Assembly (NCBI GenBank): GCA_905178155.1
Contig: CAJINV010000006.1
Span: 1,067,516 to 1,115,826, forward strand
Source of the DNA: Amoebophrya sp. A120
Lineage: Eukaryota; Protista; Dinoflagellata
Direction of reading: 5' to 3'
Length of the DNA: 48,311 nucleotides
This document shows positions 194-48,311 of the stretch, piece after piece (within the stretch, counting starts at the first letter, position 1; each line of letters begins with the position of its first letter). The position numbers were made by a program, and so were the translations under genes. Below the pieces are notes generated by a model, which was not told where the DNA came from, ran no database searches, and saw only the letters and a list, made by a program, of their open reading frames with translations.

Positions 194-3100
194 GTATTTG
201 AAGAGGCGGATGGACGTCGACAGTCCAGACGAGGGCGGAATCGAGGACTGCGTTGAGGAGGGTTCGTCGCAGGATGTGAAGAGTGGGGCTGCAGCAGCTG
301 CATCGACCCCGGGGCAGCCATCGTCGCAAGCAGATATTCTGGACACCACCGTAACATCTTCAACCCCGGCCGACTTTGACATCGGCGCCGTGCAGCTGGA
401 CCCGCTGGTGTGGAAGCAGGATTTGGCCCAGCAGAGGGGGATGTGGACGGGAGGTGATGGGGTTTTTCACAAAGTGGAAAATCAAAAGACCAGCGGAGGA
501 ACAACAGGAACATCAGGTACTAGCGCGAACAAAATGATGAACAACGCGAAGTGCAGGAAAAATAGATCTGTTCGTAGAGGTCTTCTCGCGCCGTCTGATG
601 ATCAAGAAGAAGAAGACTATTTCCTCCTGTCCGAGCAAAACCGCAAGCTCTACACGTCCTTCGGCGAAAACAGCAGAGAGGCGACAGAGCAGGAAGTTTC
701 CAGCCAAACCCAAAGTTTCCGGCGGGCGCTGGAGAGTGTTGACGGGGACAACTCATTTCGGGAAGCCGAGGCGTTGTCGGCTCTCGGGTTTTACCAGGAT
801 GCGGTGAAGGGAACGGATATTTTTACTGTTGATGGCTCATCAACAGCAGAGCAGCCTAGTTACGATCCGTCCCCCCGCCGAGGCAGATTTCTCCGGCCTG
901 TGCAGCAGCCTGGAGACGATTCTCTTCGGGTTGGTTATCAACTGTAAAAATGTCTGGGTCTGGAAGATTGCCGGCTTTGTCATGCACATTTTGCATGACT
1001 CCTCAAGTCTGTGATGCATGCCCTAGCATCACGGATTTTTAGAGGGCTTCCTGATGCCTATTCCGCATGGCAAATGCTCTTTCCGTACTGCAAAATTTGG
1101 ACTCTCTTGGCTGCTCATGCAATACAGATTTTTTTAGAATCCAAAATCAGCAGGATAAGTTGGATTCTTCCAGACCCAGACATTTTTACAGTTGATATTG
1201 GTGCCGCAGCTGCAACCGGCATAGAAACCTCCGTAGAGGGCAAAGCGAAGTCGGCTCTGCGCAGGTTAGGCGAGGACGAACACGGGCGAGTAACCGATTG
1301 GCGGTTCGTTTCCTTAGCAGAAACCTTCCGAGATTTCGAGTTCGTTTCCGCGGCGGAGACTGATATTGACAGTGAAAGAACTGAAAACAACAGTAAGGAG
1401 AAGCAAGATCATGGGTCGAAGAACGAAAAGAAATCGAAATCCACTTCATCCCAGGACCTAGTAGAAGAAGGTGACTTGTTATTGTCCCCCCAGAGCAGAC
1501 GCACCCTGCAGACCGTCCGTCCCCCGAACCCCTTCTGCGACGGCCCACCGCCCGCTGGCGACTGCACAATACCTCTAACCGACGAAGATAAGTGCACGTT
1601 TTATAACAATCTTTTCCAGTCCACCGTCGCGGTTTCCACCGACACCACCTTCGACCCAAATTTCCAATCCAGAGGATTTACCCAGGTCGACACAAGTGTC
1701 GAGTTCGGGTTTAAGAATGAGTTGAAGCTCAAGATGAACGCGCCGAAGGGAAAGTTGATCAAACTGATAATATATCAACTGCAAATGTCTGGGTCTGGAA
1801 GAAGGTTTCCAGACTTGTCATGCAGGTTTTCCATGACCTTGACCCATGAGGTCTGGTATGTAGGACATAGCATGACAGATTCTGTGATAGTTCTATGATG
1901 CCTATTCTGCATGAGAAACTGCATCTCGATTAGCAGAATTCCTGGAAGAAGTGTTTGACGAAGAAGGGAGAACAAATAGAGAAAGACTGCAAAAAGCGGA
2001 GGCTAAGCTGCGCACGAGAATACAAGGCTATACAAGGGAGGGGACATAGACGCAAGCTTTCGGGACTACGACCACCGGACGGAGGTAGACGAAATATACC
2101 AAAAGGAGGCCGGCCCACCAGTGACGGGATACAGGAGAGGAGAAAAAGTCACAACAGGGCAAGGGAAAGAGAAGAAGGGCGAAAAAACAAGAAAGACGGA
2201 ATTTCGGCACTACATGGGAAAGCTTCCGCACGACAACAAGAGAAAATGGGCCCTAGCGGTTCAATATGTGGACGACGGGACTACTGTCCTGAAGTTTTTT
2301 GTAGAAGATATAGAAGTGGTAGCGGCAGCTTTGAGAGCAGCAAGCTGGGCGCGCCAAAAAATCTATGAAACAGAAGGACAATTTTTGGCGCCCATGAAGT
2401 GCGAACTTGCCACGTCGCTGAAAGAGGCAGGCTTTCCAGCCTTTTGGAATTATGTTCGAAGAGAAGGACTTCCTAAAGATCTTAGGAATAAGGATAGTGC
2501 CAACGAACAAGGAGGGACAGCGCAAGGCTCTCAGGGGCCAAGTTCAGCAGAGCATAGGAATAGGGCAGCACCTGGCGTGCCAGGTCATGTCAAGACGGAA
2601 AAAACTAGAGGGGGCGGAGCTGGTGTGGATAGTCCAGGCGTTCTCTGTATCGTCGATGATATATTTTCTACCGGTGACGCAGCTCTATTTCGACATGCAA
2701 GACTGGGCGACGATGCTAGGGGAAATATCGCTAACAACAGCAGAGACGATAGGGATGACAGAGGAAACGGCTGAAGAACTGATGAGAAAGACGAACACAA
2801 ATGCAGAAACCTTCTACCGTGTGGCTTTCGGGGCGAAGATGCTAGGAATTACAGACCCATTCACGCTGGGGCTGAAAACACTAAGAGCAACAGCCCAAGC
2901 AAACGACTTGACAGACCCGGGGAGTTTCATCCAAATGGCAACAATGCCGCTCAAAATAGTAGGTGAATCGAAAGCAGGAATAGCAAGAGCCGTGGAAAGA
3001 AAGATCATGAAGAGAAAAGAAGCTGGCATAGCATTACTGCAGGCACTCAGAGACGGAGCATCGGTAAGGTTGTCTGCGGGGAGCGATCTGCGGGGGGTGG

Positions 3101-6100
3101 GAATAGTAAGAAAAACTAACAAAGTAAAGCCGCAGATGGTACAAAGTCAGCACGTGCGCAGATGCGACAGGAGTCTGCTTGCGGACAAAATAAAACAAGG
3201 GGGGAAAGGCAAGAAAGGGCAAAGTGACTACATGGCGAAGATATGGGTAAAACACACGGAAAAGGAAGAGGCCACGACGGTAACAATAGAGGAATGGAAA
3301 GGGAAAGAAGAGCACATGGCAACAATTGAAACGAGGCAGGATCACCTAAAGACAGAAGTTAGGACAGAAGAACGAAAATTCGTAGCGTATTGCAATAACG
3401 CCATAAGAGCGATAGAGATGGTGAAGAAGCAGCAACGCGAAGGGAGTGGAGGGGTGTGCGTGTGCTTGCTGGATTGCGACGAGATGAAAGAGAAAACGCG
3501 GGGGCTCCTGCGGAAAGAACAAGGGAGAGCGCTAGAGCTGCAGGAGGAAATAGAAAAAGCAGAGGAACAGATCCCGGGATTAGCAGCAGCCAGGCGCTGG
3601 GGGAAGCAGAACGCGCCCAAAACCCTCGCAAAGAGAGAAGCACAAGGGGGCTATACAGAAGTGATACCCTTGAAGGTGGCAAACGTATCGAAGCACGACG
3701 ACGAATATGCCGAATGGGTTCAGTACGATTTCGGGGCTAAAAATGTACCGACAAAACCGGTCTGGGAATGGCCGGAAATCAATGCCAAAAATAGAAAGAC
3801 AAGTGTGCATCTACCGGAAGACTATAGGAGATGAAAAGAAAGAAGGGCAGAAAACGGAGAAGGGAAGCGGTGACGGCGGGGACGACAGAAAGAAAGGCAG
3901 CGCAGGAGAGAGGAAGGGGAAGGGGGCAGGCAGCAGTGCGAAGGGAAACGCTCGCTGCGGAAAAGGCCCCAAGGGGAACACTGCGCCGACAGACACGAGC
4001 AGGGAGATAGGCAGCGGGTCATTAGCAGAAACAATCAGAAAAATGGTAGAAGGGGAAAAGATAAGAGCACAAAAAGAAGGAAGCGAAATGCTGCAGAGGG
4101 CGCTGGACATAATAGGAAGAGCCACAGACCTACTAGAAACAGCCGAAGACGTTCCACTAGAATCCCGCGCGACGTCGAGCAGCAGCACCAGGAGAGACGT
4201 GCCGGAAATAACAGAAGAGCGAAATGAATCAAAAAAAGAAGAAAAGGACGAAACAGAGGAAGATGCGTATTTCTACCCGGCGCAGGAGTATCAGGGAAGC
4301 CGCCCAGGATATGTGTACAAACTTGGGCATTTTGGCATGGGGTATTATAAGGATCAAGGACCGGAGGAGGCAACGCGGGAGATGTTTCAAAAAATTACGA
4401 TAGGGGGGCCAGGAGGCAAACTGCCCAAGAGGGAAGTCTCGAAAGAACAGAAAACAGCGAGCAAAGAAGTCGCAGGAGATGCGACGCGACATGAGAAGAA
4501 CACGCAGCAAGTGCGCCAAGTGCCGGAAAAGGAGGAGGAAACAGAAGCGACAGCACGAGAAGCAGCAGAACCAGCTGGAGAAGGGGGACTTGGAGGACTG
4601 AGGAAGAAAATCGCTAAAGATATAAGCGAAACAGAGATGGCAAAAGAAGATAAAAAGGAAGAAAAAAGATTCCCAACGCTGGAGGAGCTGAACGAGAGGG
4701 ACCGGAAGCGGGACCGCGAAGAGGCAGCGGAGCGGGAAGACGAGCGCAAGCGGCAGGAAGAAAGGAGATCCATGAAAAGACTGAAGTATGAAAACCCATT
4801 ACAAGATGAGTTAGCCCAGATGTATAGGAACACGCGCTGAGAAATAATGATGAAGGAAATGTTCAAAAATGATGAAAAGAAAGGGAACAGAGAACGAAAC
4901 AGAAGGGCGCATAATGGGGGCGCAGTGTTCTGGGTGTCGGCGGAGGGGAGAGGAAGCAGAGGAAAGAAAAGGAAGAGAAGAAAGAAAGTGGCTCCCTTGG
5001 TCGTCACAGCTAGCCTGCAAGGGCTCCGTTTCCGCCAGCTGAAAGGCACGGCGGTGCTAATCGTCTCGTCCTCGCCAGCCGATAGGCACGGCGCTGCTAT
5101 CCCGTCGTCGTCATTGCGTCCCTTTTACTAGTAGGTGGAAACAGGGTTGCTAAGTTAAAGACTGCGCTAAGGCAGCGCCCCCCTTCCCCAAGGGGCCCCC
5201 CGGGGCGGGCGCGGTGGCGGCTCTGCTAACGCGGAGCTTCAAAGTCCGACTCTACCTATGCGCATAAAAAGTAAGGGCGCGCGGAAGCAGGTCGGTAAAG
5301 TGCTTGAAAGGGGCATGCTTTGGGGTTGCCCGTCATCGTGATAGGGTCAACGTGTGTGACCAATAGACCCCCTGTATATCATAGCGCGCAACCGACCACA
5401 AAAGCAGTAGCGTTTGACGTTTGTAAGAATAACCCCGCAAGGCAACACTGGAGCTCCACCTTGCTCGCGGGCTTGGATGGTAAATCAGGTCAGCCACATC
5501 TAACGCCCACTGGCCGTATACACGCGTAAGAAATCGGAAACGGTTCAGCGGATGCGGTCGGGTGGTACCTGTAGGACGTGGAACGGGTGTCCACCTAGGG
5601 GTATTGGCAGAGGCTAAATCTGTTCTAGCGCCACGGTATTGGCAGAGGCTAAATCTGTTCTAACGCCACCCTGACAGGAGTCAAATGCCAAAGCGATACG
5701 ATGCGACTAGGTCGCACGTGGACAGCTTTTGGTAATCATGCAACACAGATTTCTACGTGATTCAGATTTAGCATTACAAGTTCCAACCTTCGAGACCCAA
5801 ACATATTTGCAATGCATATGATACGGAACGTGGAGTTACCGGTAACTGGCGGCGAAACGCTGTTCGACTTGACCACCTTCTTCCGCGGGCAGATCCAGGA
5901 CCAGAGTCTCTCCTGTTGCCGGCCCGGGGGGACGGTTAATCCTTCTACGCCGTTGATTTCCTTCAGGATAGCAAGAGCTCTACCGATCTTCATGGCGGCG
6001 AACAAAAACGAATTTAGGAATGACCCAGACAGGTACCCTGTGGAAGCGGATTTACCAATCAGATTTGGTGACAATAGTTTCATCGAGTTCAAGTTCATCG

Positions 6101-9100
6101 CGTCCGGGCCGGTGGCGCCGGGGAATGTTTTGGAGATCCAGGGGCCCGCCGGATACCGGTTTGTCCCGGATTTTTTCCAGCTGCGGGATATGGGCCCGGA
6201 GGGGTTCTGTCCCCCCCCGAAGCCGGGGGACGAGGGGTGTGCCTACCCCTATTTGTCGTTGACGGTGAATAGGATTTTGGACAACGGGATGGACCAGCCG
6301 AGGTTGATTCTCACCATGGACACGAAGGACGAAATTTGGTTGAAAATGTACAGGACGATCAACATGGTCACCGTCGAGAAGAAGGAGTACGACGCAACGG
6401 ATCCGGCGAATGTGTATTTGTTAGAAAGAGGGTTGATCGGGGACGATTTGGTGGTGGATGTGAACGCCACGGAAGTTACAAACGTTCTCCCCCCGCCAAG
6501 CTCCATGCCCGATAACCAGATCTACTTTGGCAGGAGGTACGCATTTATGCATTGCAAAAGCATCGTACTAGTATAAACCGCAATACAAATTTCCTTAGCA
6601 TTAGAAATGGAATTTGTAATGCGGATTTGCCTTTCCAAGACCCTCCGGTTTGTTTGAGAAACATAGACCCTCCGGTTTGTTTGAGAACGGATACTATCCC
6701 TTTCCAAATCAAAACACATTAGGACCCGGGGGGACAGGAAGAGCCCCCCGGTAGCGCTAGTCTCACATGGGTGCACACATAAGGACGTTGACGGAGAAAC
6801 ACACACACACACGCAAAAACACGTCGGCCAAAAACAAAAATAAAATGCGTCCTGCACAAACTGCCCTCACTCACTCACCGGGTGGATGCGCCGCCGAGGT
6901 CCGCAGATAGCTTATTGAGAAAAAGAATAAGACTAGTAATAGCTTAGTAAGAAAGAAAAAGATAGAAGTCGCAAAAACTACTACTAATGTTTTTGTGCTA
7001 GAATAGCCGCGCCGCTGAACAACGGGAGACGGCCTGTCCGGTGAGTGAGTACGCCGTCAACTGCTCGCCGGGGCGCTGCGTGGAAGGGCAGCGTCGCCGC
7101 AAGTCGAGCCGGGGAACTAGTTTCTTTGCTTTCGACTGCCTTTTATTTTTTATGTTCCCCGTCATCTCAATTCCCCCTTAACTTGCCGCCTTACTCTTCA
7201 CGGACATCTCGTGGATGACATCAGCGCGTAGAACGGTTCGAACCAGCCTCGGGCTACAAGGCGACAGGTAAACCATCCCTACGCCCTCCGCTTTGACCTT
7301 GACGAAACTGACTACCAAACACTCTGGGGATTTCTATCAGCAACAGCATTGCCGACACCTAGGGCCACGCCACCGCGCCTTCCGAGGGTAGATCAGACGG
7401 ACCACAGAAGGGCGCTGCGAGGTGGCAACGACATCACTGAAGCGGGAGAGCGGATACAAGGCCTTCGCTCAACTGTGTGGTGTGCGTTGTTTACTAGTCC
7501 TAGTTTCATCGTCCGCGTGTTACTAGCGTCCTGACCCTTCAGGTCGTCCCTGCCGCCGGTGGTCACGTCCGCGTGGCGCTATCAGCGAATCAGCGAAAAT
7601 AGGTTATCTCTCTCTCTCTCTCTAATGCGGATTTGCCTTCAGAAAATGCATGACTGCGATTACTACGAGTGCGATACTTTTGCACAGGATAGCATTGCAG
7701 GCGAGGGTACAGGGACCGCAACAGGCGGCGGTATTATAAAGTTTTTTTGTTGTTGCTTGTTCTTTCCAGCATGACAAAATGAGTCTTGTCTTCGAAAATA
7801 AAGTCTTGCATCACAGACTACACGACATGCGATCCGTTCCAAACCATACCAAAACAGCCCCCGCCCAACCACCAGTTCCAGATCAAATTCACAACCTTAG
7901 TCGCGGTCAACAACGGGGAATATCCAAATGACCTCGGCCCCAGCCCAGATTTCAACATGACCCACTGCATCCCCTTTCGAATCAGCAAATCCATCCTCGC
8001 GTTCCATGACCCGGACATCACCTATCCGCTAGAATGGCAGTCCTTCGTCGCCGCAGATTCCTTCCTCGACGTGAAACTCGAGTTCCCCCGGAAGTTCCCG
8101 CAGGATCTAGGGTTGACAAACCTCGAAGTCTACCCGCCTTCTTCCGGGTTTTTCCTCCCGAGAGGGCAAATTTTCAGCGACCGACAAGAATATTTACCGT
8201 TGCAGTTCGCTTCCATCACGGTGAACAAAATCCGGCCGTTCACGGCGCCGGTGGAAATCAACGGGACGACGTTATACCCAGCGACGAAGTACGTGCAAGC
8301 GCCGGGGGGCGTTATCAAATGCAAAAATGTCTGGATCTGGAAGAGTGTAAACTTGTCATGCAGGTTTTCCATGACCCTTGAAGTCTGGAATGCGGGACCT
8401 AGCATGACAGAGTCTGTGAGGTCTCTTTCATGCCTATCCTGCATGAGAAAATCCCTCCCAACTTGGTCAAAAGTGGACAGCTTTTGGCACTCATGCAACA
8501 CAGATTTTTGCATGATTCGGATTTAGCATGACAAGTTGCAATCTTCCAGACTCAGACATTTTTGCAATCCATAGGCGTGAATCTGAAACTAGTCTGCGAC
8601 CGGAACGACTCAACCCCGATAAACAAAGACGTCGAGCTATTATATGTAGAAACGTCCCCACCCCATAGTCAAGTTGGGATCTTAGCAACACAAATCTAGA
8701 AGTTTTGGGAGCCTCGCATGACAAGTTGCAGTTCGTAGTGTACTGCAGGTTCGTAAGGACAGCGGCATCACAAATCCATCTGCTCATCCTGTTCCCGGCA
8801 TTACAAATCCCAAAACACGACTAGCAATTGCCTCTCATGGGGACCCGCATTACAAATGTTTCTGTAGATGCAAATCTGCATGACAACTATGGGGTGGGGA
8901 CGTTTTTACTCAGCATACGAGCCGGTCCAGAACTACCACTGGTACATCATCGGGAACGCGAAAAACCCGACGACCGGGGTGGTTTCTACTCTCGGTTGGG
9001 AGCGGTATGAGCCGAAGGATTTACTCGTTTCCCAGTTCTATGCATTGCAAATATGTCAAGGAATGCAAACTTGTGATGCGCATTTCACAACACATACAAA

Positions 9101-12100
9101 TCTCTCATGCCGCAGCGGCAAAAGCTGCCCACTTTCTGACACCAAAGTGGGGAGTTTGTCATTCGGATTCGGCGTTCCGGAAGCTTTTCGAAATCTGTGA
9201 TACCAGAGCTTCCATGCCAGACCTTCTGCGTCATGCAAAAACAGCATGACTCTTCCAGACCGAGACATATTTGCATTTCATAAGTTCCCGGTGCAGTGGA
9301 ATCCAGAGACGAAGTGGATCGCTGGGTCGCAGGTGGAAGCCATGTTTGAAATCAAATTCAGAATACCGCTGCCCGTCGGTGGCGCAATTTACATCAAAGC
9401 GCCGCCGAATTACCGGTTTAGGTGCCCGATTACGAACATCATGGTCCTATCATATGTAAAAACGTCCCCACCCCAGAGTTGTCATGCAGATTTGCGATTG
9501 CAGGAAGATTTGCAATGCGCATCTCCATGAGAGGCATTGCCAGTCGTGTTTTGGGATTTGTAATGCTGCAAACAGCATAAGCAGATGGATTTGTGATGCG
9601 GTTGTCCTTGCTAACATGCACTACTTACACTACGGACTGCAACTTGTCATGCGTTGCTCTCAAAACTTCTGGATTTGTGTTGCTAAGTTCCCAACTTGAC
9701 TATGGGGGTGGGGACGTTTTTACATATGATAGCTCCCGGAGCCGAGTTACATGCCAATTTGCGTGTTTAACCCCATCCATCCTCTGTTGCAGGGTTGTGG
9801 CAGGATAGAACGGGATCTGCAGCAGGTGACTTTTGACATAAACCGTTTGGAAAACAGGATCGAGTATCTGAAGGAACTGAGCAAAATCAAACCCCAGGAG
9901 ATGACGCCGCAACAGAGATTGACTTTCATCTCCGAAACGGTGAACGGGACGAGGAGGGAATTAGATGTGAAAATGCTGTACAAGAGGGAATTAGAGGAAA
10001 TCATGGAGTACGTGCCGCCACCAAGTTCTGAAACCGATTCAACCACGATCACAACTTTGACGATAACCAGTACCGCGTCTGGCGGGTTCTCGATCACAAA
10101 TACTCCGCCTACAACCACGACAACAGAGCCGCCCACAACCCTCCCCCCGAACGGCCTGGCGACGACCGCCAAGCCGGAGGGGAAGCCGCCGAGCGGGTGC
10201 GAGCTGCGGCACGAGGTCTTGTTTGCTTATCAGACGACGGATTACCCGCTATGAACTGCAAATGTGTTTGGGTCTGGAAGAATTATGCAGAAGACTTCTC
10301 ATGATGCACATTTCGCAAGACCCATGATGTCTGTGATGCATGCTCTAGCATCACAAACTTTTTGAGGGCTTTCTGATGCGCATACTGCATCGTAGCACAA
10401 AATCGACTCCTCTTGCTGGTCATGATGCAATACAGATTTTTTTAGAATCCGAAGACAGCATCAGAAGTTGCCTTCTTCCAGACCCGGACATATTTGCACT
10501 TCATACCCGCCGGTGTTCTACGAAACGAAGATGACCCGGTCGATCCGCGATCCGATCACGGGTATGCATTGCAAAAGCATCGTCAGGAGAGGTCCTAGGA
10601 GTAATCTTCGCAATCATGCATTGCAAATCTCTTTCGCAAGGGAAATCGGCATGACAGATTCCATCTGTCATGCTGAACTAATTTGTAATGCAATCACTAC
10701 TAGAAGCACAAGCAGCGCGACACTTTTGCAATGCATAACTGGCATCCGGCAGGAACGGTCGCAGCAGGTGGCGATCCCGATCATGACCTACAAGTTCAAC
10801 ATCCGGATGGAACTGCCGGATATGCATTGCAAATATCGATCTGTGTCTGGAAACTTGTGATGCTAATTTATGAATTGCGGGGATCACACTGCAATAGGCA
10901 GCCGCGCATGACAAGTTTCTGGGCTCCTTTGTGTTTCGCTTTCCGCATGACAAATAACTACATTTGTGCATGACAGGCAAGCGGCTCTTTATTTCCTGCT
11001 CCCGCATTACAGGTTCAAGACTCACATATTAAGACAAGCATGACAAGCTTGCACTCTACTTCCAGACCCGGACAACATATTTGCATTGGATACCGGAAGC
11101 GGACGCGCAGCTCCCGAACAGCAACCGGTACAACGATTTCGACGTGATTATGCTGGACCGGATGAAGAGAACCATTGACAACAACGTGGCGGTATCCTGT
11201 GCAAAAGTGTCGTACTCGTATTGCAGTCATGCATTACAAATCTTTTTCTTAACGTAAACCCGCATTACAAATTTTCTCTCTCATGCTGAGAGAATTTGCA
11301 ATGCATTTAAATACGAGTACGATACTTTTGCAATGCATAGGCGGTGCCCGTCCCCCAATTCTACACGGACTACAAAGTGACCAACTTCATATGCATCGCA
11401 AGAGCATCGTGCCAAGTAGTAGCAAGCGCATGACAGATTTACTGCGTAGCATGTTGACAAATGGACTTTGTAATGCTGATTTGGCTTCGCAAAGAACATT
11501 TCTCTTGCAGGAATGCGATTAGTGGCGCGTCGTGCACGATGCTCTTGCAGTGGATACTTCACCTTTTGGTACGACCACGAGCGGACGCGGTTCCGCACTC
11601 AGGAGGAAAATAAAGTGATCAACGGGATCGACGAGGCCTATGACCCCTATCCTATGTAAAAACGTCCCCACCCGCCCATAGCTGTCATGCAGATTTGCCA
11701 ATGCAGGAACATTTGTAATGCGCACCGGCATGGGAGGTACTTCCAATCGTGTTGTGGAATTCGTAATGCTGTAAACGGGATACGTGCGTGGCGTTGTGAT
11801 GCGGCTGTGCTTGATAAACTGCACTCCAAGACACAGAGGAACTTGTCATGCGTGACTCTCAAAAGTTCTGGATTCCTGTTGCGAAAGCCCCATCTTGATG
11901 ACTATGGGGTGGGGACGTTTTTGCTCAGCATAACCCGCGCGGAAAAATCATCCCCTTCTATGTCACGATCGCCATCAACGAGCGGATTCCGGCGGGGCGG
12001 GGGTTCAAGGTGATGGAATTTACCGTCCCGGACAATGGGTTTGGCATGGAAATCGCCTTGCCGACGGATGTCCAAGTTCTCTCCGAGGCCGTGCCGGTGC

Positions 12101-14663: not shown

Positions 14664-14803
14664 TGCTGACCGAAAACGTTTCTGAAGTTTCTGGAGTTAA
14701 TTACAATAGCCGATAGAAGTTGCAACAGCGACACAACGATAGTCCAACGCAGCTGCAACAAGAATCTGCAGGGTTCTTGCGATAGAAGAAAGCTGCTGGC
14801 AGC
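14664..14803. repeat. Dispersed non-coding repeat (second copy 23129-23269)
   Basis: GCTGACCGAAAACGTTTCTGAAGTTTCTGGAGTTAATTACAATAGCCGATAGAAGTTGCAAC shared. Confidence 0.85.
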
Positions 14804-24135: not shown

Positions 24136-24139
24136 TAGT

Positions 24140-38336: not shown

Positions 38337-41300
38337 ATGAGGATGATGAAATTCTGTCTCCTTCTTGCCTCCTACCACCAGGGCGGCGGAGGCGGACCAC
38401 TTTTCGCCGGCGCGGTGTGGGATCGATTGTTTGGCCGGGAAGATGAAGATGGTTTCTTAGGGCCAGCACATGATGTTCCTGCTCCTCGAGAGCAGAAGAA
38501 GGACTTGACGTTGAGCGGAGGAGAATCTTCTACTTTCGCCACGACTTCTAGTTCTGCCACGACTTCTAGTTTCGCCGGAGACGAGCACAAGACCAGTTCG
38601 TCGCCCTCTCTCTTGACGACCGATGCGCAGGCGGCAGCGGCCAGTCTTCCTGGTGCGCACGACCAGAAGATGTTGAAGAAGTATCGGCTGCGGGGATCGA
38701 AAAATCAACACTTCTTGGAGGACAACGCCGCTAGTACAACTTCTTCCCAGGACCACGACGGGCACAATATCGAGATGGACGGTTTCAATACCGCGGCCGC
38801 GGGAGCGCTGCAGACGCAGACCACTTCTGCGGATAAAGATCCTGCTGATGAAATAGAAAACCAGGAACAAATTATAGCGCCAAACACGTCGAAAGAGAAC
38901 ACGAACCCAGGTGCAGCAGCTACCGGGAAGGGCGTTCTTGAGCGCAAAAGTTCCAAGCACAAGAACCACGGGGACCACTTCTACACGAGCACAACAGGAG
39001 CGAAGTACAACGAACAACCGGCGGAAGTACAAGTAGACGGGCAACATCAACCCGAAGCTCCTGCAGCTGCGTTCCTGAACACCAGGGTTACAAGTACAAC
39101 TGTGGCCGATGATGACACACCTCCTCCTCGTCCCCCATCTCATACTATGTTGAAGTCGAAAACGCCCCCGGCCCCGGCCTCCCCGCACAGCTTATCAACC
39201 AGAACCACGAGGACTACACTGCAGCCTCAAGAAGTTCTTGTCGGAGCTCCTGTTGCAGTGCTACCACAGCACGACGATATTAACACAGGCTCGGCTTCAT
39301 CGTCGTTTTTGGGTCGTCGTTGTTTCGGTGATGGGGGCGGATGTGGTGGTAGTCAACAAGCTCCTCCAGCAGGCGCTCCCCCGCCGGCGCCCAGGGCGCC
39401 TGGTACAACTCCTACGCCGAAAAATTTGAATCAGAACCAGCAACAATCCACAACTCCTGTTGCTGTTGTATGGCGTTCTCAAACGTTACATTCTGAACTG
39501 TTACGTGGATTTGTAATGCAAGAACAGCAACAGTGAAACAGGCAAGATTGCAGCTTTCGCATCACAGATTTTCCACAGATCATCATGCTGCTTAGCGCTT
39601 CAAAAATTTGTCATGCTAAGCACGTTGATCAAGTGGAGGGTGGTGGCAGTTTTGCATGACAAATCCGTGTAACAGTTGAGAACGTAACACTTGAGAACGC
39701 CATATGTTGCGGGAGCACCAGGCCTTCCGCTTGCACCGGGAGGTGCTGGCGGTGTCCTCTCGTCTTCCGGGGGTGATCCTGGCGCCCCTGGTGCAACCCG
39801 GCAACCCCTGTTGCAGAGCAGTGCAGCGCAAGTGCCTGCGCCAGCAGGTAGCGCAACTTCAGCGCAACCATTACTGCAGAGCAGTGCAACTACAGCCCCG
39901 CTTGCGCCCGGACCTCCTCCTGGTGGGAGTCTTCAACCTCCGCCCCCAGAGGCGAGGACGATGTTGACCACCAGAACGTCGGTCCAACAGCGCGCCGAGG
40001 GCGGACTCCCACCTCCAACCACAACTGTGCCAAGCAGTGCGACAACTACGGGTGCTGCCCCGCTTGCAACAAGTGCAACTTTTGGTGACTCCTCTACTTC
40101 CACTGCGTTGCGACCTCCCGGACCACCGTTCGCGCCCTCGGGCGGCGGGGGCGCGGAATCGGTCTATCAACCGGGAATAGGCCCTACCCAGCGTGTAGTT
40201 GGAGTTGCAACTGGACCTGGAGCAGGCGGATCGCCACCTCTGGCGACGACTACATTGACGGCTCCTGGCGCACCTGCTCCGCCCGTGCCGACCACGACGA
40301 CGATGACCACTCCGTCCGGTGTTGTACCCGAAGGTCCGCCCCCCGGTGGTGATGTGGGCACCAGCTCGGGTGGTCGAGGTGGGACGACCGCAGTTGATGC
40401 TGGTCCTGATGTTGAGAAAGCACCTGAACTACAACCACTACCTGTTAAGGTTTTGCGCCCCGAGGACTGGTCTCTGGCGGAAATGCAAAATACACTGCCT
40501 CAAGGAGACAGCAAAGCAAAGGAGATGCTTATTCCAGAGCAAAAACAATTGAGCCCACGACTAACGAGGACCCTAGAGTCGGTTACAGTTCAACATGAAT
40601 ATTATCGCATACATGGTTGTGGTTCTACTTTCGTGGTTTGATAACCACGAATGTAGAACCAGCATATATCTTCCAGTAATACGCATGACAATCAAGTAGA
40701 AGTACAAGAACAGGTCTCCTGGGGTCGTCATCGTCAATGGCCATGAGGCTACTTTCTTTCTCCTAGCATATACGATGCGGAAATCGCTAAAGCGGACGTA
40801 CGCACGAAAATTTTGGTGGAAAATGTGATGGGCTGGAAGCTTTCTACCTCGCCAGATCAACCTTCACCGGAAGGTCTTTCGACTGGTGCAACAACTACTG
40901 GCGAAGCAAGCGATGATCCGAAGACAACGACCGTCCGCGTCCGCAAGTGTTATCAAGATACGAAGATCAGTATCCTGTGTGAAAACGTCCCCACCCCGCA
41001 GTCAAGATGGGAAATTTGCTAGACAAATCCACAAGTTTTGGGACTAGCGCATGACAAGTTTGGGGACGCAGCATAGTCCTGCCTAGGTACTTGTTAGCCG
41101 CGACGCATTACAGCTCCACTCATCTCTTATCCTGATTCGCGCATGACAGATTACCAAACACGAGCAGAAAATGCCCGTCATGCTGAGCCGCATGATAGAT
41201 GTTTCTGGGCATACAGATTTGCACGACAACTTCTTTGGATTGGGGACGTTTTTTCTCTGGATATGCAAGGGTGTTGGTCCGAGCAATTTCATCGAACATT

Positions 41301-44300
41301 TCTTCGTGACATTTGACCTTCCGGACGGCACGGAGTGGACGTCCGAGTATGGTCCGAACGGCGGCGTGGATATGGATTCTGCAAACATGTCCTCTGGGTC
41401 ATCATATTGTTGAAGGGTCGTCCACCAGGTTTGTCATGCTTGGCCAGTATGACTTGTCTCAACGATCTGTGATGCACGTTCTTACCCAAAAACCGCAGCT
41501 CCTTGCTGTCATGCACAAAACAAAGCGGTTTGCCATGCAGAAAGGGCACCAGTACCACCTAGCGCCCCAAAGCATTTATTATGCTTGGTTGTGAATCTGA
41601 ATGGAGGCGTCCTCATGACTGTCCCACCCGCATCACAAGTTTCCAGACTCCGACATGTTTGCACTTGATCGCGGACACCTATGAGAGCAGGAAGGACAAT
41701 CGGAGGCTCGCGAGATTGAGTTATTTCATGTGCAAGCATTATATTAAACAAGTATCGAGTACTCGGACTCGGACAATGAATTGCGGTTGCGCATGACAAA
41801 TCTAACTTTCCACCTTAATATGCTCCAGCATGAAAAATTGCATTTTTCTTCGATCATCTTGTTCTACAACGTACTTCGGAAATGAAATTCGTACGTGCAA
41901 TTCATTGCTACGAAAAGTAAAAAGTACTTAGTGCGCTACTTTTGCGATGCATAGGAGTGGCCTATCAGATGATACTGGGCAGGCCCCTTTAGACGATGCT
42001 GCGTGGGAGAATTTCAAGCAACAGGACCGGGATTTCCAGGCCAGACAAGATGAGTTCGGTGTGCAAGACTGGGGAGACTACATGGCAGCGTATCGGGCCC
42101 TTGGCAAACAAGATCCCGCCATATGCCTAAAAATGCAAATATGTCTGAATCTGGAAGAGCGCACTTGTTTATTGTCATGCATCTTCTCGTGGACCAAGCA
42201 AGAGCAACCAGATGGACTGGAAGACTAGATACACAGAGAAGCATGACAGATTCTTGCACAGGAGCTTCCTAATGCCCAATCTGCATGTTGAGAAATTCGC
42301 TCTATGCGTACAACTAGCAAGAAAAAATAATGTGGGTATCTCTTGGCAAGACCAAGAGATATTTGTCTGTTCATCCAGACACATCAGACTTGGCAAGACA
42401 CGTGGCAGTGTAATTTCAGACACCATGATTGGGATATTTGCACTGGATACGCCGGCGAAGCGAAAAACCAATATAAATCGCCGTGGTTGTGTGCGTTTCA
42501 GAAAGGCGCTGTCCAAAAGGTCGCGAAAGCCTGGAGAAACGACAAGAGCACACTTTTGCAGACCGGAATCAGCGCTTTGATTGAGCCGGTCTGGGAAAAC
42601 TTCGAATTCGAAGTTATGGGGCTGAACAATGGATATCAAGAGGAAAAATCCCCCCTCCCCATATCGAAATGGAAATCTGTGATGCAGGATTTGTGCACAC
42701 AAATCGGATTTGTCCTGCGGTAGAGGACTGCAGACAGATACAAAGCCCGGAAAGGGGCGGCTTGGGGTAGGCACTTAGCATGGCAGACGTCTGCCCTAGT
42801 AGCGTAGCAGCATCACAAATCGCCTGCGAAATGCAGCGGAAGCCCTGGCTTTGCTCTCTTGCAGGATAGACTACATCTGTGGCGACAAATCAGCATCACA
42901 AATTTTGAAAAGCGCGCCTTTTCGATATGGGGAGGGGGGATTTTTCCTCACAATAATGGCGAAGAATTAAAGAAGCGCCTCAACCAGCTCGCCGTTGCGA
43001 CCGGTTTCGTCGCGGGAGAATACAGCGCTCTTCGGCCATACGGCAAGAACTGTCAAACGTGGACGAACGAAGTGGCTAACGCCCTCCGGACGCAGAACGA
43101 TTACGAGTTGAACGTGAGCCAAAAGTCTCGGTTTTGGCCCGGTGGTTCTCGCCTCCGGACGGGAAAGGATTTTTCGGACCCAGAACAAGGCCCAAATTAC
43201 TTGGTGGAAACGCGAGCCCCGGAGCTGGAAAAGAAGCTCTACGCGTTCCGGGTATGATATTGATAATGCACATAGGTCTGGGTCTAAATAAAGAATTGAA
43301 CAACTTGTGATGCGAATTTTGCCGGACACAAAAATCTGTGTTGCATGAGCACCAATAGTTGTTCATTTCTCGCAACGCAAAAAGCCGATTTCCCATGCAG
43401 AAAAGGCATGATAGGACGGCATGTGCACAACTTGTAATGCGCTTGTCCGCATTCCAGGCCACAACCACATATGTGGTTCAGAACACGCATGGCAAACAGT
43501 CGTGTCGAAGTCTTTCAGACCCAGACATGTTTGCACATTCGATATCGGGAGCTATGAAATGCAAAAATGTCTGGGTCTGGAAGGATCCGAACTTGCGATG
43601 CGCATTTTAGAACACAGAAAAATCTCTCATGCATGGGTAGCAAAAGCTGCCGACTTTTTGCCACCAAAATGGGGGATTTCTCATGCGGATTCGGCATTGC
43701 GGAAGCTTCTCGAAACCTGTGATGCTAGAGCCTCCATGCCAGACCTTCTGTGTCATGCAAAAACAGCATGACTCTTCCAGACCCAGACATTTTTACATTT
43801 GATAGGAGCGCCTACGCAACAAGAGCTGTGAGCCGGGAATGGACCCGCGGAAAAAAGAGGCGTACATCTCGCTGTTTGCTATTCCACGAAAAAAACGTTG
43901 TTAGTGTAAATTAGTGATGCGCAACATGCAAGATGATTGCGTCCGTCATGCTTGGCATGCATTGCAGGGTCCATGAACAAAGGGCGTTCTTACGTACTAT
44001 CTGCGCATGACAGGTTTTTGCTGTCATGCCAGACAGATTTGTAATGCTGTTCCTCCAAAAAAGTGACAATTACAATGTTTTTTTCTTGGATATTCGCCTA
44101 CCACAGTCTCTTGCTCAAATTCTGGATACAAGAAGTGGACACTCTCTTGCAGAAACATGGACTTTAGGCACTGCAAAAGGTTCTTCGTACTTACTCGTAG
44201 AAGTCGTAGTTGTGATTCTTGCAAGAAGTATGCATTATGCAACAAGTTTCATCTACTTCCTAGAGGTAAAAAATATGCATTGCGCCTTGCATTTCTCATG

Positions 44301-44773
44301 CTGAGAAAATTTGTTAAAGCAATCCCATACCCATAGTACGACCACGATCTCGAAATGATCTCGATGCCTTTGCAGTGCATAAAGGTGACGCGCTTCGCAA
44401 ACGGAACGCAAACGCTGAAATCGCGAAAATTTCCATCCAAGCCGAGTGCCCACCACCCAGGCGTATCAAATGTAAAAATGTCTGGGTCTGGAAGATTGCC
44501 AGGTTTGTCATGCATATTTTGAATGACCCAGGATCGATCTGTGATGCATGCCTTAGCATCACAGATTTTCAGAGGACTTTGTGATGTAGTCTCTACCGCA
44601 TGAGAAATGCCCTCGTCTTCACGGAGCACAAACTGGAGTTGTCCTTTTGCTGGTCATGCAATACAAATTTTTTTAGAATCCAGAGACAGCATGACAAGTT
44701 TGAAATCTTCCAGAGGACCCAGACATTTTTACGTTTGATAAGGCGAGTCGGTCACCTATATCCTGGACACTAA
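38337..44773 (+). CDS. Gene 4: putative secreted protein with long low-complexity N-terminus and a permuted papain-like (PPPDE/DeSI-like) thiol peptidase domain
   Basis: Signal-like MMKFCLLLASY; Thr/Pro/Ala-rich exons 38337-39468 and 39710-~40600; then ~40771-40970, 41269-41370 (IEHFFVTF...SEYG), 41676-41721, 41959-42121, 42455-42633, 42961-43252 (FVAGEYSALRPYGKNCQTWTNEV), 43550-43552, 43810-43879, 44098-44164, 44387-44463, 44746-44773. Junction at 40600-40770 unresolved. Confidence 0.65.
39469..39704. mobile_element. Introner family E
   Basis: TIR TATGGCGTTCTCAA; DR TGTTG; joins ORFs 38337 and 39691 in frame. Confidence 0.95.
40971..41263. mobile_element. Introner family C
   Basis: TIRs clear; DR decayed (ATCAG/TGCAA). 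Confidence 0.8.
41371..41670. mobile_element. Introner family A variant (ATC end)
   Basis: DR GTGGA/GCGGA. Confidence 0.8.
41722..41953. mobile_element. Degenerate introner family B
   Basis: DR TGAGT/GGAGT; frame restored. Confidence 0.75.
42122..42449. mobile_element. Degenerate introner family A
   Basis: DR CGCCA/CGCCG. Confidence 0.8.
42634..42955. mobile_element. Introner family G
   Basis: TIR TAT....GAGGAAAAATCCCCCCTCCCCATATCGAAA; DR ATGGA/ATGGC. Confidence 0.9.
43253..43544. mobile_element. Introner family A
   Basis: DR CCGGG/TCGGG. Confidence 0.85.
43553..43804. mobile_element. Introner family A
   Basis: DR GGAGC. Confidence 0.95.
43880..44092. mobile_element. Degenerate introner
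   Basis: TATTCCACGAAAAAAA / TTTTTTTCTTGGATA; DR TTTGC/TTCGC. Confidence 0.75.
44165..44381. mobile_element. Degenerate introner family B (TAG start)
   Basis: TAGGCACTGCAAA / TTTGCAGTGCATA; DR lost, but removing element +5 nt keeps frame. Confidence 0.65.
44464..44740. mobile_element. Introner family A
   Basis: DR AGGCG; similar to 936-1197. Confidence 0.95.
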
Positions 44774-46048
44774 GCAGCTATTGGCCTCGCTCTCCGAACG
44801 CCGATCGTACTGTTCTAGTCCCAGAGCGACCATTTTTTGTGCTTGTGATTTGTCGTTGCACAGTTTGTAATGTCAAGAGTAGAAGACCTCCCTTGCTGCA
44901 GATCCAGCAACGATGGTGGTCTTCTGTTTGTTATGCAAAACCGGCACGGCGCGTGTCGTCCTTGCGATGTATTTTTTTTTTTCGCCGTAGCTTTATATTT
45001 TCTCATTTACATTTTTCGACTTTGATTTTTGGGTACTATCTTCCTTCTTGTTTGAATGAATTAAGATTAACATCTTCATAAAAATGATCCTATATCAGTC
45101 GCGCTTTTGACGATACCGGTAGCCTGCTTAATAATTGCTGAACATGAAAATGTTTGTTTGTATGGTTCATGTGTGCTTTTTCATCTGATTATAGCGCTAC
45201 ACCAAGATCGATGTTGTTAAAGCTACTTGACTTTTTTGATGAAATGCCAGTGCTCTTTTTTTCTGACATTACAGCCGTACTATCGTCTGTGTATCGCTGC
45301 ACCGATGCCGCGTCGTAGAAAATGAATATCAACGTAGTCGGGGAAATCGCATTTGTCCACATCGGTCGCGCTGTGAAGTTCTGGCGCTTTCTTGTTTTTA
45401 GGAAAACATCATGGTCCTGCGCAAATCGGCAAAAAATCGCTATCTCCTTGGTTGTACCACTATATTTCCTCCTCTCTAGTACTAGCACGCAGCTTGTAAG
45501 AATCATGTCGGTTCGAACTCCTAACTACAAGAAGTGCTGTCCCGATCGGTTGTAGTCCATTCGTGCATAGACTTCTCCGAATGGTCAACATCGGTTGCAC
45601 ACGACAAACAGGTGGCTTGCTGTGGTCTTCGGCATCGTCGCACATAAGTTGTACCTAGGTCGCGCGCACTTGCTACCTATCGCCGACGTGATATTAATTT
45701 TAATGCAAGTGCTACTATAATTTCTAAGACCTCGCGTTACCACGAGGCGGTACGTCTTGATTGTCATTTACATCGATCACGTCGACAGGAGGCACCTTGA
45801 ATGTTGAGTCATGTGACAATTTCAATTTGCATATCCACTAATTCCCGCTACTAGCAGATCGTAATTGGATTGTCAATCCGGTTTGAGACCTTTATACAGA
45901 AGGTTGAAGTGTGACCGACATACATTGCCCCGTCACAGAACCAGGAGCAGAAACGAATATTAAATTTAAACCTAGAAAAAAATAATATACAACGACGGTT
46001 CGATCACGATCGTCAACAACTACTTAAGAACAACTACGCTAAAAAACT

Positions 46049-46308
46049 TATCAACACAGTGCGCAACTCCACCCCCTCCCCCTCATTTGTAGTGCATTTC
46101 CAGCAGCGCCAGCAGCAGTAGATGAAACCAATGCAAATCAAATGCGGTCTCTGCATGATATACAAAACCACGCGCTGAGCATAGTGCTAGTGCAGTTTGG
46201 GCTTCCAGAACTTGTGACGCAAGCACAGCCGAAAGGCTCACCTCAGACAGGATTTGGCATTTTTGCATTACAAACGTGGGGCGGGAGGGGAACTTGTGGA
46301 CTCGGATA
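46049..46308. mobile_element. Introner family D upstream of gene 5 (UTR or intergenic)
   Basis: Reverse copy of 17095-17315; DR AAACT/TAACT. Confidence 0.8.
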
Positions 46309-46632: not shown

Positions 46633-48065
46633 ATGAAGATGTCTCGGAACAAGTCCCTGACCATGATGAAGAAAATGTCAGTCGCTCCTGCGCCTCTGAC
46701 TGCAGCTGTTTGCAGCGTGCTGGTCGTATTATTACACGCGTTGTGCTGCGGGTGGTCCTCGTATGGATTGCAAAAATGTCTGGGTCTGGAAAGTTGAGCT
46801 TGTGAAGATGCTGCGTTTGGATTCTAAAAAAATCTGTATTGCATGAGCAGCAAAGAGAGTGCAATTTTTGCTACACGGAATAAAGGGCATAATTTGTCAT
46901 GCGGTATAGGCATCAGGAAGCCCTCATAAAATCTGTGATGGTACTAGGGCATGCATCACAGACATCAGGAGTCACGCAAAATGTGCATGACAGACCTTGG
47001 ATCCTTCCAGACCCAGACATATTTGCATTTGATACCTCGTTTTCTTGCGTGACGAGCGTTCGTGCAGTCCTTCTCCTTGCCAGTCCCAGAAGCCGCGGGC
47101 AGCCTCGTGGCGGAAGCAGGGGTAGCAGCAGAGGTCGTCGTGGTCATGCCGGAACGGGTACAGGGGTGGTGCCGGGTATGGGCGTGTCAGGATTGAAATC
47201 GTCAGAGTTGAAATAGTTTGTCATGTTGCATGAATTGCAAGGCATGAAGCGCCTCTCTTGCAGGGATGGCAAGTGAGGCCGACTGTCAGCCTGTTTGGGG
47301 TCTGCGGTCGAGCTGCGAAATAAAGTAGCATGACAAAAGAGGACGCCTTCTGGGGCCCCTAAACAGCATGACAAACTGAATTTACACGGTGCAGAGATCA
47401 TCTGTCATGCGCCGCTTGGAAATTGGGCTTCCAACTGGTATCGATTTTATGCATGGCAAACTCTTTCAACTCTGACGATTTCAATCCTGACGCTTCCATA
47501 CTGGGCGCGGAGCAAGGTGGAAAGGCCGCGTCGGACCAAGGGGCGCACTGGGGCGACGTGCCGGACCCAGTTTGGGCCGTGATCAACGAAGGCGCACGCG
47601 CGCGTTCGTATCCGGGCTGGTCCGACTTGATTTCGCTTTTCAGAATCGTGTTTTCCGGTGAGCTCCAACCGGGGGCCGCCCAGCTGGAGCACGCCCGAGA
47701 CGCGGTGTTGCTGGGGACCATCCAGCGTGCGTGGGGTTCTGAAACGGGACTACCGATCACTCCGGTCGAAGAAGGTTTGATTCGGTGGCATCTCTTTTTC
47801 CAGGCGTGGAGCACGTTTCCCCAACAGGTTGTCTCGCCGCTTGCCGAAGTAAGCAGGCGCTTTCGCGGCTTTTCTTCGGTGCGCCAGCCGGCCCGCCTGG
47901 GCCAGTTCCTCTCGGAGGAGCTTTTCGCTACGAGTCACGTCGGATGGCAGCAATCCACCGGGCCGGGCGAGTACATTGCGGGTCAGCAGTTCGCTTCCAA
48001 GTTTCTCGCCACGTTCGAGACGGCTCTCAAGCGGCCGGGTGCCGCAACGTACCTGCGGGATGGTA
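46633..48065 (+). CDS. Gene 5 (3'-partial): signal-peptide-bearing protein of unknown family
   Basis: Exons 46633-46761, 47040-47176, 47506-48065 in frame; hydrophobic AVCSVLVVLLHALCCGW; Gly/Arg-rich linker; continues beyond window. Confidence 0.75.
46762..47034. mobile_element. Introner family A
   Basis: DR CCTCG; empty site at 24064-24068. Confidence 0.95.
47177..47500. mobile_element. Introner family H
   Basis: ~37-bp TIR with core GTCAGGATTGAAATCGTCAGAGTTGAAA; DR CCGGG/CTGGG. Confidence 0.95.
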
Positions 48066-48311
48066 TATGCATTGCAAATGAGTCTGGGTCTGGAAGATTC
48101 TAAACTTGTAATTATACAAGAGGTGAACACGCTCCACACGTAAAAGGTTAAGCTTGTCGCTTTTCGCTTCTTTGTCTTTCTACTAGTCGCAAGCTACCCT
48201 TGACCCACTCCGCACTAGAAACCAAAAGCAACACACAACAACGACCAGGCAGGCACCCCGCCGCACCCTCACGCACTCCCCACAGGCGCACAGCAAGGCG
48301 ACAGTCCCAGT
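48066..48311. mobile_element. Left end of a family A introner, interrupted at ~48113 by foreign sequence running off the window
   Basis: TATGCATTGCAAATGAGTCTGGGTCTGGAAG; similarity stops after CTTGTAAT. Confidence 0.75.

What the first reader, a model, noticed from the sequence alone, without database searches (positions are those of the whole stretch)
194..48311. System of TAT...ATA transposon-introns removed precisely with one copy of a 5-bp target duplication, without GT-AG signals
Seen: ~47 complete elements of >=8 TIR families share the end grammar TAT-N5-G(C/T)AAA and a 5-bp DR of arbitrary sequence (TTGGT, GCATT, CGAGC, CCCGC, CTTCA...). Removing element plus one DR restores the frame at all 18 such sites in gene 1. 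The DRs do not supply AG|GT, so sliding the junction generally cannot give GT-AG. Established: repeat-bounded non-canonical introner elements are described in Amoebophrya genomes, but to my knowledge the excision mechanism and mobilising enzyme are unresolved. Inference: a dedicated end-recognition pathway coexists with ordinary GT-AG introns (7731-7803, 31654-31724).
Basis: partly seen in the sequence, partly recalled or inferred. Interest (0 to 1): 0.9.

Follow-up and report, generated by a model that had tools for sequence, protein, structure and literature searches.

The report
Transposon introns cut by fixed ruler
In a marine parasite, dozens of small transposon-like inserts sit inside genes and are removed from the RNA without the usual GT-AG signals, which is already published; new here, every informative site fits one rule (cut one base before the insert's TAT start and four bases after its ATA end), likely made by an altered spliceosome.

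Summary
Observation confirmed; system already published. A database protein identical to a window exon is named Amoebophrya sp. A120, whose TAT-ended introner elements Farhat 2021 described. I count 47 complete elements. The repeat is 5 bp (24/47 perfect here; 178/271 in a second assembly). RNA-type contigs lack the elements; DNA contigs keep them.

New: imperfect repeats map the cut. All 14 informative sites (7 RNA, 7 annotated protein) are compatible with one register, and three allow only it: intron = 1 nt + TAT…ATA + 4 nt. The cut lies inside the duplication, not at the element edge. It needs no repeat identity (0/5 at 40530), no fixed orientation, no predicted end-pairing (18042), and ignores an available GT-AG (9448). 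Farhat called these borders variable or unknown.

Intron positions +1, −2 and −1 are free while +2 is always U. Those are the three bases the spliceosome uses to dock the 3' site, so a modified spliceosome is likely (0.5); a Euglena-like nuclease-ligase is the rival (0.35). No transposase found. Correction: the canonical intron is 7731-7857.

The parts
1..193 (+). 3' end of a further element (ATA at 191-193), cut by the window edge; gene 1 continues upstream
   Evidence: end scan; RNA contig X3 record 9 runs 12.6 kb beyond 193
194..14715 (+). gene 1 (3' part): 1481 codons after removing 18 elements and 1 GT-AG intron; poly-A at 14715
936..1197 (.). element, family A, repeat TTGGT/TTGGT
   Evidence: RNA join 930->1198
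1773..5818 (.). 4-kb family A element with nested ~3.7-kb insert; TAATA/TGATA; left base 2 kept
   Evidence: RNA piece ends 1769; RNA depth 0-4 inside
6546..7691 (.). 1.1-kb family B element, GCATT
7731..7857 (+). canonical GT-AG intron (corrected end); holds 2 internal motifs
   Evidence: contig length 3791 fits only this end
8313..8573 (.). element A, GGCGT
8638..8917 (.). element C, CGAGC
9039..9282 (.). element A (inverted), AGTTC
9448..9731 (.). element C (inverted vs 8638), GGTCC/GCTCC; available GT-AG slide not used
   Evidence: RNA join 9444->9734
10250..10505 (.). element A, CCCGC
10563..10737 (.). element B, ACGGG/ACTGG
   Evidence: length match
10821..11092 (.). element A, CCGGA
   Evidence: length match
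11193..11339 (.). element B, GGCGG
   Evidence: length match
11390..11556 (.). element B, CTTCA
   Evidence: length match
11648..11932 (.). element C, ACCCC/ACCCG; right base 5 kept
   Evidence: RNA piece starts 11933
12191..12452 (.). element A, GATCC
12524..12790 (.). element A, CGGGC
   Evidence: length match
12890..13087 (.). element B, CCGTT/CCCTT; left base 3 kept
   Evidence: join 12887->13091
13182..13459 (.). element A, CGGGT
   Evidence: join
13507..13660 (.). element B, GGTAA
   Evidence: join
15934..16312 (.). element, AACGG
   Evidence: join; retained in DNA contig
16767..17034 (.). element A, AGAAG/AGAAC; right base 5 kept
   Evidence: join 16761->17035
17095..17315 (.). element, TGGAA; empty site in paralog
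17549..17899 (.). element starting TAC, GCGTG; empty site in paralog
18042..18351 (.). old element, CGAGT/TGAAG; pins intron to 18041-18355
   Evidence: join 18040->18356 with zero overlap
18473..18641 (.). element, CGGTT/TAGTC
   Evidence: join 18469->18644
18708..22318 (.). 3.6-kb family B element with inserts, ATCCT/ATCAA; left side fits only the same register
22736..22885 (.). element B, TGGTG/TGAAG
   Evidence: sequence
24266..24528 (.). element A, GCGTG; empty site in paralog
24595..24885 (.). element C, GCGAC; empty site in paralog
25670..25820 (.). element, CCAAA
25989..26126 (.). element B, ATACC/ATGCC
27257..28885 (+). element-free paralog of gene 2 (empty sites)
30973..31127 (.). 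element B starting TGT, CAAGT/CGAGT
31246..31560 (.). element ending ATG, CCGCA
31654..31724 (+). possible GT-AG intron; the fixed-register reading 31654-31727 keeps the same frame; unverified
   Evidence: sequence; no hit
38337..44780 (+). gene 3 (annotated protein P0001) with 12 elements; end approximate
39469..39704 (.). element, TGTTG
40530..40770 (.). old element with no repeat (ATGCT/TACGA); pins intron to 40529-40774
   Evidence: P0001 compatible with one register only
40971..41263 (.). element C, ATCAG/TGCAA
41371..41670 (.). element ending ATC, GTGGA/GCGGA
41722..41953 (.). element, TGAGT/GGAGT
42122..42449 (.). element, CGCCA/CGCCG
42634..42955 (.). element, ATGGA/ATGGC
43253..43544 (.). 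element A, CCGGG/TCGGG; predicted 3-nt exon 43549-43551 follows
   Evidence: P0001 disagrees here
43553..43804 (.). element A, GGAGC
   Evidence: P0001 disagrees here
43880..44092 (.). element, TTTGC/TTCGC
44165..44381 (.). element starting TAG, GACTT/AAGGT
44464..44740 (.). element A, AGGCG
46049..46308 (.). element, AAACT/TAACT
46762..47034 (.). element A, CCTCG
47177..47500 (.). element, CCGGG/CTGGG
48066..48311 (.). left end of a family A element; no right end found before the window edge

Best explanation
These are non-coding inverted-repeat inserts with 5-bp target duplications that are removed from the RNA at one fixed register (1 nt before TAT, 4 nt after ATA), likely by a modified spliceosome and likely spread by an integrase-type transposase. 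Shown: 5-bp duplication, empty sites in a paralog, removal in RNA-type contigs but not DNA contigs, the register, and independence from repeat identity, element orientation and length (147 to 4046 nt). Because 1+4=5, each new insertion is removed without changing the mRNA. Inferred (0.8): a DDE/integrase-like enzyme mobilises them, binding a shared internal motif (AAAYYTGTVATGC) and the termini. Inferred (0.5): the 5' end N|N-UAU-S acts as a donor in which U+2 (and usually A+3) is still read, while the G+1/G-1 and A-2/branch-point docking contacts are relaxed. The 3' cut would then be measured from the terminal AUA by a factor that reads each end's sequence.
For: Register from RNA (k = left-copy bases kept): 18042 k=4 only; 18708 left piece fits k=4 only; 12890 k3-5; 18473 k2-4; 9448 k2-5; 1773 k>=2; 11648 and 16767 k<=4. 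That is 8 sites; 7 excluding half-seen 1773. Register from annotated P0001: 40530 k=4 only; 44165 k4-5; 43880 k3-5; 40971 k2-4; 41371 k>=2; 41722 k>=1; 42122 k<=4. Both sets intersect at k=4. Spliced length 6020-14693 = 3791 = contig length; a second contig 3851+9 A = 3860. DNA contigs cross 15934, 18042 and 18473 without gaps. Families A, B and C are spliced in both orientations in genes 1-2. At k=4, +1 is T11/C9/G9/A8, -2 is G12/C11/A7/T7, -1 is G18/T7/C6/A6, and +2 is T in 37 of 37 genic elements. The yeast structure docks G-1 on G+1 and A-2 on the branch A, while U+2 pairs with U6 A51 (10.1101/212811 passages). Farhat Table S4: 9 of 9 predominant A120 motifs start N-T; 9 of 9 in A25 start TT, where the repeats begin TTA. 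83 of 89 spliceosomal proteins were found and U1 was not. At 18042 and 40530 the termini are not predicted to pair, and the inner 18042 stem is offset by 3 nt (sequence).
Against: No lariat, branch point or snRNA pairing was tested. No fixed branch A: 3' ends vary to GTA, CTA, ACA, ATC and ATG in the second assembly (not RNA-checked). Position +5 is G or C with no 5'/3' asymmetry (C120/G61 vs C117/G64), and the two ends are otherwise symmetric. T+2 may simply be the transposon terminus. Table S4 may be biased by aligner sliding towards T+2 and A-2 (recalled BLAT behaviour; 8 of 9 A120 motifs have A at -2). A spliceosome free at +1, -1 and -2 has no precedent that I know. Only 3 sites pin the register exactly. 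RNA evidence is assembled contigs labelled RNA by guess, which hide minor junctions. P0001 fits neither 43253 nor 43553 at any register, and its independence from runs X3/X6 was not checked. No transposase was found.
Confidence: 0.5

Rival explanations
1. Same elements and register, but a non-spliceosomal endonuclease plus RNA ligase cuts both flanks (staggered by 3 nt) and would release circles, as proposed for Euglena nonconventional introns.
For: Most elements are predicted to pair end to end (mean pairing 0.82-0.88 at end positions 9-15 in 22 RNA-supported elements). Orientation independence. No AG or G+1 preference. Euglena uses a motif-plus-spacer code N3-CDG...CHG-N5-6|R (PMC12501133 abstract and section 8) and makes circles (PMC11282704 section 6). 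An RNase III plus ligase route is proposed in PMC12621601 (passages).
Against: The register holds where end pairing is not predicted (18042: 0.2 expected pairs, z -0.06; 40530: 3.1 pairs). End positions 4 and 7 do not covary within elements (0.49 vs 0.50 and 0.29 vs 0.29). U+2 is shared with A25 despite different repeats. Euglena's downstream purine rule fails here: exon +1 is a purine in 19 of 37.
Confidence: 0.35
2. Removal depends on the direct repeat itself (recombination-like exchange or cutting at the TIR/DR edge), or the junctions are reverse-transcriptase template-switch artefacts at repeats flanking hairpins.
For: Most sites have near-perfect repeats and strong hairpins, the classic setting for template switching (general knowledge). 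At 12 of the 25 gene 1-2 sites or more, perfect repeats make the cut point unobservable.
Against: Join 18040->18356 has zero overlap. 40530 has 0/5 repeat identity. The mRNA is a left/right hybrid at a fixed point. Unspliced transcripts would hit early stops at 17 of 18 gene-1 sites.
Confidence: 0.06
3. Elements are excised from DNA in part of the life cycle (ciliate IES-like), so the RNA is copied from an edited template.
For: TA-ended inserts inside coding sequence resemble IESs (recalled). The DNA run's joint table was swamped by repeats, so minor excised DNA forms cannot be excluded.
Against: DNA contigs at depth 42-51 run straight through or into elements. The same contigs that lose the elements also lose the GT-AG intron and carry poly-A.
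Confidence: 0.04
4. The elements self-splice as ribozymes using the shared internal motif.
For: The motif is in 222 of 222 second-assembly elements and 39 of 42 short window elements.
Against: Both orientations are spliced, interiors are unrelated, 3.6-4 kb inserts are tolerated, and Rfam gives 0 hits in the window.
Confidence: 0.05

Closest known systems
Amoebophrya A120 introner elements (Farhat et al. 2021, PMC7789003)
   Same: Same strain by protein identity; IR motif starting TAT then A-run; 3-5 nt direct repeats; about 240-nt length; RNA-supported; non-GT-AG; coexisting canonical introns.
   Different: Farhat: splice sites 'variable' relative to the hairpin, border 'remains unknown', repeats vary in length and position. 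Here: repeat strictly 5 bp, one register, repeat not needed, orientation-free, shared internal motif, and the same families at 69-93% identity in a second assembly.
A120 family 38 introner (Gozashti et al. 2025, PMC12130899)
   Same: TIR element with '5-bp TSD, TA/TA Termini' (supplement file 8 row 580); ORFs with Copia/Gypsy homology, a candidate mobiliser lineage.
   Different: No such ORF found here. Their automated TSD calls for the 11 A120 families I saw were 2-5 bp or none, with mixed splice motifs.
Euglena nonconventional introns (Nomura et al. 2025, PMC12501133)
   Same: Terminal inverted motif plus fixed spacers of any sequence; direct repeats obscure junctions; coexist with GT-AG introns.
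   Different: Euglena: CDG/CHG, spacers 3 and 5-6, downstream purine, pairing required. Here: UAU/AUA, spacers 1 and 4, no purine rule, U at +2, pairing apparently dispensable in old copies.
IS3EU/GingerRoot, Ginger2, IS481EU DNA transposons (PMC10045372)
   Same: Integrase-related DDE groups: TA..TA termini (IS3EU/GingerRoot), TNT..AYA (IS481EU), 4-5-bp TSD (Ginger2).
   Different: GingerRoot/IS3EU TSD is 6 bp and IS481EU about 4, 15 or 25 bp; no transposase here to classify.
U2-type spliceosomal introns
   Same: U at +2; 5' end N-UAU-S resembles GUAUG donors (yeast consensus recalled).
   Different: No G+1, no AG, no polarity, no fixed branch A found.

Membership tests
Amoebophrya A120 introner elements | terminal inverted repeat starting TAT with downstream A run | tested here: met
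   42 of 47 exact TAT/ATA; end logos
Amoebophrya A120 introner elements | 3-5 nt direct repeat at the junction | tested here: met
   5 bp; 40 of 47 at 4/5 or better
Amoebophrya A120 introner elements | RNA-supported removal, non GT-AG | tested here: met
   0 of 37 are GT-AG at the mapped register
Amoebophrya A120 introner elements | repeated families | tested here: met
   4 multi-member clusters in the window; 7 with the second assembly
MITE / non-autonomous TIR transposon | TIR, fixed TSD, empty sites | tested here: met
   single repeat copy in the paralog at 16767, 17095, 17549, 24266, 24595; 4 other gene-2 sites did not align
MITE / non-autonomous TIR transposon | cognate transposase in the genome | tested here: inconclusive
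   no genome held; no transposase family among hits for 20 window ORFs or 96 locus ORFs
IS3EU/GingerRoot | TA..TA termini | tested here: met
IS3EU/GingerRoot | 6-bp TSD | tested here: not met
   0 of 44 and 0 of 271 perfect at 6 bp
U2-type spliceosomal intron | G+1 and 3' AG | tested here: not met
U2-type spliceosomal intron | U (or C) at +2 | tested here: met
   37 of 37; follows from TAT plus the register
U2-type spliceosomal intron | lariat with branch adenosine; snRNA dependence | not testable with these tools
   no raw reads of this strain (X9: 2 reads); snRNA alignments are figures
Euglena-type nonconventional intron | terminal motif with fixed spacers | tested here: met
   1 and 4 nt
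Euglena-type nonconventional intron | CDG/CHG motif, 3 and 5-6 nt spacers, downstream purine | tested here: not met
Euglena-type nonconventional intron | excised as full-length circles | not testable with these tools
   contigs only; no back-joins listed

The most novel reading that the evidence does not exclude
Amoebophrya A120 has a spliceosome that no longer needs G+1 or the 3' AG: it reads N-U-A as donor and places the acceptor exactly four bases past a transposon's terminal AUA. Any 5-bp-duplicating TA-ended transposon then becomes a seamless intron in either orientation. A25 follows the same 'cut one base before UA' rule with unrelated repeats.
Probability: 0.4. Interest if true: 0.9.

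Novelty: already known. Interest (0 to 1): 0.62.

Why it matters
About two thirds of A120 introns are non-canonical and their borders were published as variable or unknown. A single register turns that into an exact code that can re-annotate tens of thousands of introns and fix gene models (for example a predicted 3-nt exon). It explains why insertions are harmless: the two spacers add up to the duplication length. It also predicts the exact ends of the excised RNA, so lariat versus circle, and spliceosome versus a new enzyme, becomes a direct experiment. A spliceosome freed from G+1 and AG would revise a near-universal rule.

Tried and rejected
No RNA holder on record was listed for 5800-13700; X3-X6 are RNA by guess. 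Raw-read run X9 laid 2 reads, so no read-level test. Codon-model and AT-shift test of the register in the second assembly: uninformative, summed log ratios -1.0 to +0.9 over 10-22 mismatches per position. The idea that repeat position 4 is specially conserved was rejected: mismatches 6/7/6/4/8. General 10.5-bp phasing of the internal motif is weak (0.14-0.16); only the 31-33-bp pair spacing recurs, in 14 of 30 clusters and 7 of 7 multi-member ones. The 5'/3' asymmetry of variant termini is inconclusive: 10 confidently oriented of 15 found, including one 5' CAT. Transposase search found nothing: Pfam (95 of 101 long locus ORFs plus one short ORF were sent), homolog search of ORF 2422-3831, only 2 elements over 500 nt in the loci, viral contigs 0 matches; the protein atlas did not complete, so that ORF stays unclassified. 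Rfam gave 0 hits. The exon after 31724 had no database hit. Earlier scan findings: none. My first translation used the wrong frame and was redone. Literature: searches listed no paper whose title or shown text states this register. I read only parts of the papers. Farhat Figs 3 and S19-S25 are images I could not see and may bear on the register. Roy et al. 2023 Curr Biol was not read.

Full report
Identity and prior art. An exon of gene 3 matches one database protein at 100%, named Amoebophrya sp. A120. Farhat et al. 2021 (PMC7789003; abstract, sections 11, 12, 16, 25, passages, supplement part 2 and Table S4 rows) describe A120 introner elements whose inverted repeats start with TAT and carry an A run, with 3-5-nt direct repeats. 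Their Fig. [quoted passage not shown] They found no transposase and no U1 in A120. Gozashti et al. 2025 (PMC12130899; section 6, passages, supplement file 8 rows) list A120 family 38 with '5-bp TSD, TA/TA Termini' and Copia/Gypsy-like ORFs. The system is therefore known.

Observation. I curated 47 complete elements; 42 have exact TAT...ATA ends. Under fixed criteria 28 candidates are seen against 0-1 in 30 simulations. The repeat is 5 bp and no other length. There, 271 end pairs chosen without regard to repeats give 178 perfect 5-bp repeats, against 1 at 4 bp and 0 at 6 bp, and 38 of 44 window elements have relatives at 69-93% identity. An element-free paralog (27257-28885) has a single repeat copy at 16767, 17095, 17549, 24266 and 24595; four other gene-2 sites did not align. 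These are target duplications.

RNA. Two runs labelled RNA by guess (X3, X6) hold contigs without the elements. The predicted spliced length of 6020-14693 (16 elements plus one GT-AG intron) is 3791, equal to the X3 contig; the X6 contig equals 3851 plus 9 A. This fixes the canonical intron at 7731-7857. Nine joints in 12800-19000 each skip element plus 5 nt. Run X1 gives ungapped contigs through 15934, 18042 and 18473 and through the canonical intron, as DNA should. Of 25 elements in genes 1-2, 23 are supported by a joint or the exact length, and two long ones (1773, 18708) by one side plus near-zero depth inside.

The register. Where the two repeat copies differ, the transcript shows which base survives. 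With k as the number of left-copy bases kept, RNA gives: 18042 k=4 only (join 18040->18356, zero overlap); 18708 k=4 (63-nt piece ending 18706, left side only); 12890 k3-5; 18473 k2-4; 9448 k2-5; 16767 and 11648 k<=4; and half-seen 1773 k>=2. The annotated protein gives, at 7 of 12 gene-3 sites: 40530 k=4 only (repeat identity 0/5); 44165 k4-5; 43880 k3-5; 40971 k2-4; 41371 k>=2; 41722 k>=1; 42122 k<=4. Three sites were uninformative and two (43253, 43553) fit no register. At those two, the rule predicts a 3-nt exon and an open frame of 1057 codons that differs from the annotation; this is untested. Both sets intersect at k=4: intron = N-TAT...ATA-NNNN. At 9448 a GT-AG slide exists (k=1) and the RNA excludes it.

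What the machinery does not need. Repeat identity (40530, 18042). Orientation: families A, B and C are each spliced in both orientations. Short length: 3.6- and 4-kb copies with inserts appear to be removed. Particular bases at +1, -2 or -1. Predicted end pairing: most elements fold end to end, but 18042 and 40530 do not, and end positions 4 and 7 do not covary. The third base of TAT can vary: 17549 starts TAC and is spliced.

Mechanism, inferred. In the yeast spliceosome, G-1 pairs with G+1 and A-2 with the branch A, while U+2 pairs with U6 A51 (10.1101/212811 passages). The three free positions here are those docking bases; the fixed one is U+2. Farhat Table S4 shows N-T starts for 9 of 9 predominant A120 motifs and TT for 9 of 9 in A25, whose repeats start TTA, although aligner sliding may inflate this (recalled). 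I put a modified spliceosome at 0.5. Against it: no branch point was found, the ends are symmetric, and U+2 could be only the transposon terminus. The rival at 0.35 is a Euglena-like route; Euglena uses N3-CDG...CHG-N5-6|R with length-sensitive spacers (PMC12501133 abstract, section 8, passages) and releases circles (PMC11282704 section 6). In both cases the spacers should sum to the duplication length (inference).

Mobility, inferred. All families share an internal motif, AAAYYTGTVATGC: 121 copies in 10.2 kb of short elements against 18 in 29.3 kb outside, and 793 against about 5 in shuffles in the second assembly. Same-direction copies recur 31-33 bp apart. Its reverse complement resembles the bases after TAT. 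It is most simply a transposase site, but two copies also lie in the canonical intron, so a splicing role is open. TA ends with a 5-bp duplication fit integrase-related DDE groups but miss GingerRoot's 6 bp (PMC10045372 passages). No transposase was found.

Verdict. A real, published system with a simple splice code that I did not find stated in the papers returned; unseen figures may bear on this. Register confidence about 0.88; full mechanism 0.5; interest 0.62. Other papers were seen only as passages (PMC12005148; PMC12787238; PMC12621601) or as search listings.

Noticed in passing
window 1-193: Telomere-like GGGAAACC repeats at 1-57 precede an element's right end, yet gene 1's RNA contig continues 12.6 kb upstream: assembly break, internal satellite or chimeric contig.
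   Followed up: partly
window ~1933-5710: A-rich ~3.7-kb insert nested in element 1773, with three overlapping ORFs (255, 470, 388 aa), no Pfam hit at cut-off and no homolog for the 470-aa ORF; DNA depth 100-400 vs ~45 and many variants suggest several copies; CGATTAG/CGACTAG flank it. Possibly an unclassified mobile element.
   Followed up: partly
window 15251-28885: Paralog family (gene 2, fragment 24203-25250, intron-free 27257-28885) with independent insertions; 17549 and 24266 are different elements at the same GCGTG site.
   Followed up: partly
window 43545-43552: Two elements 8 nt apart with overlapping duplications predict a 3-nt exon; the public protein differs in frame from here on.
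   Followed up: partly
window 42958-43251: Weak DUF6540 match (E 0.026); the NCQTW stretch recalls PPPDE-type cysteine peptidases (recalled, untested).
   Followed up: no
window 34400-38100: GC-rich region with long inverted repeats (37036-37095 / 38026-38085), dispersed direct repeats and two internal-motif copies at 36446 and 36554; unexplained.
   Followed up: no
window 21340-22130: ~355-bp tandem repeat inside the 3.6-kb element 18708.
   Followed up: no
window 24150-24202: Orphan right half of a family A element, preceded by sequence like 46670-47100.
   Followed up: no
L001-L159 (JACKZZ01 contigs): A second assembly carries the same element families; these loci also hold SNF2, DNA ligase, UBA1, KIN17-like, TRIP4-like and DNA methylase ORFs.
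   Followed up: partly
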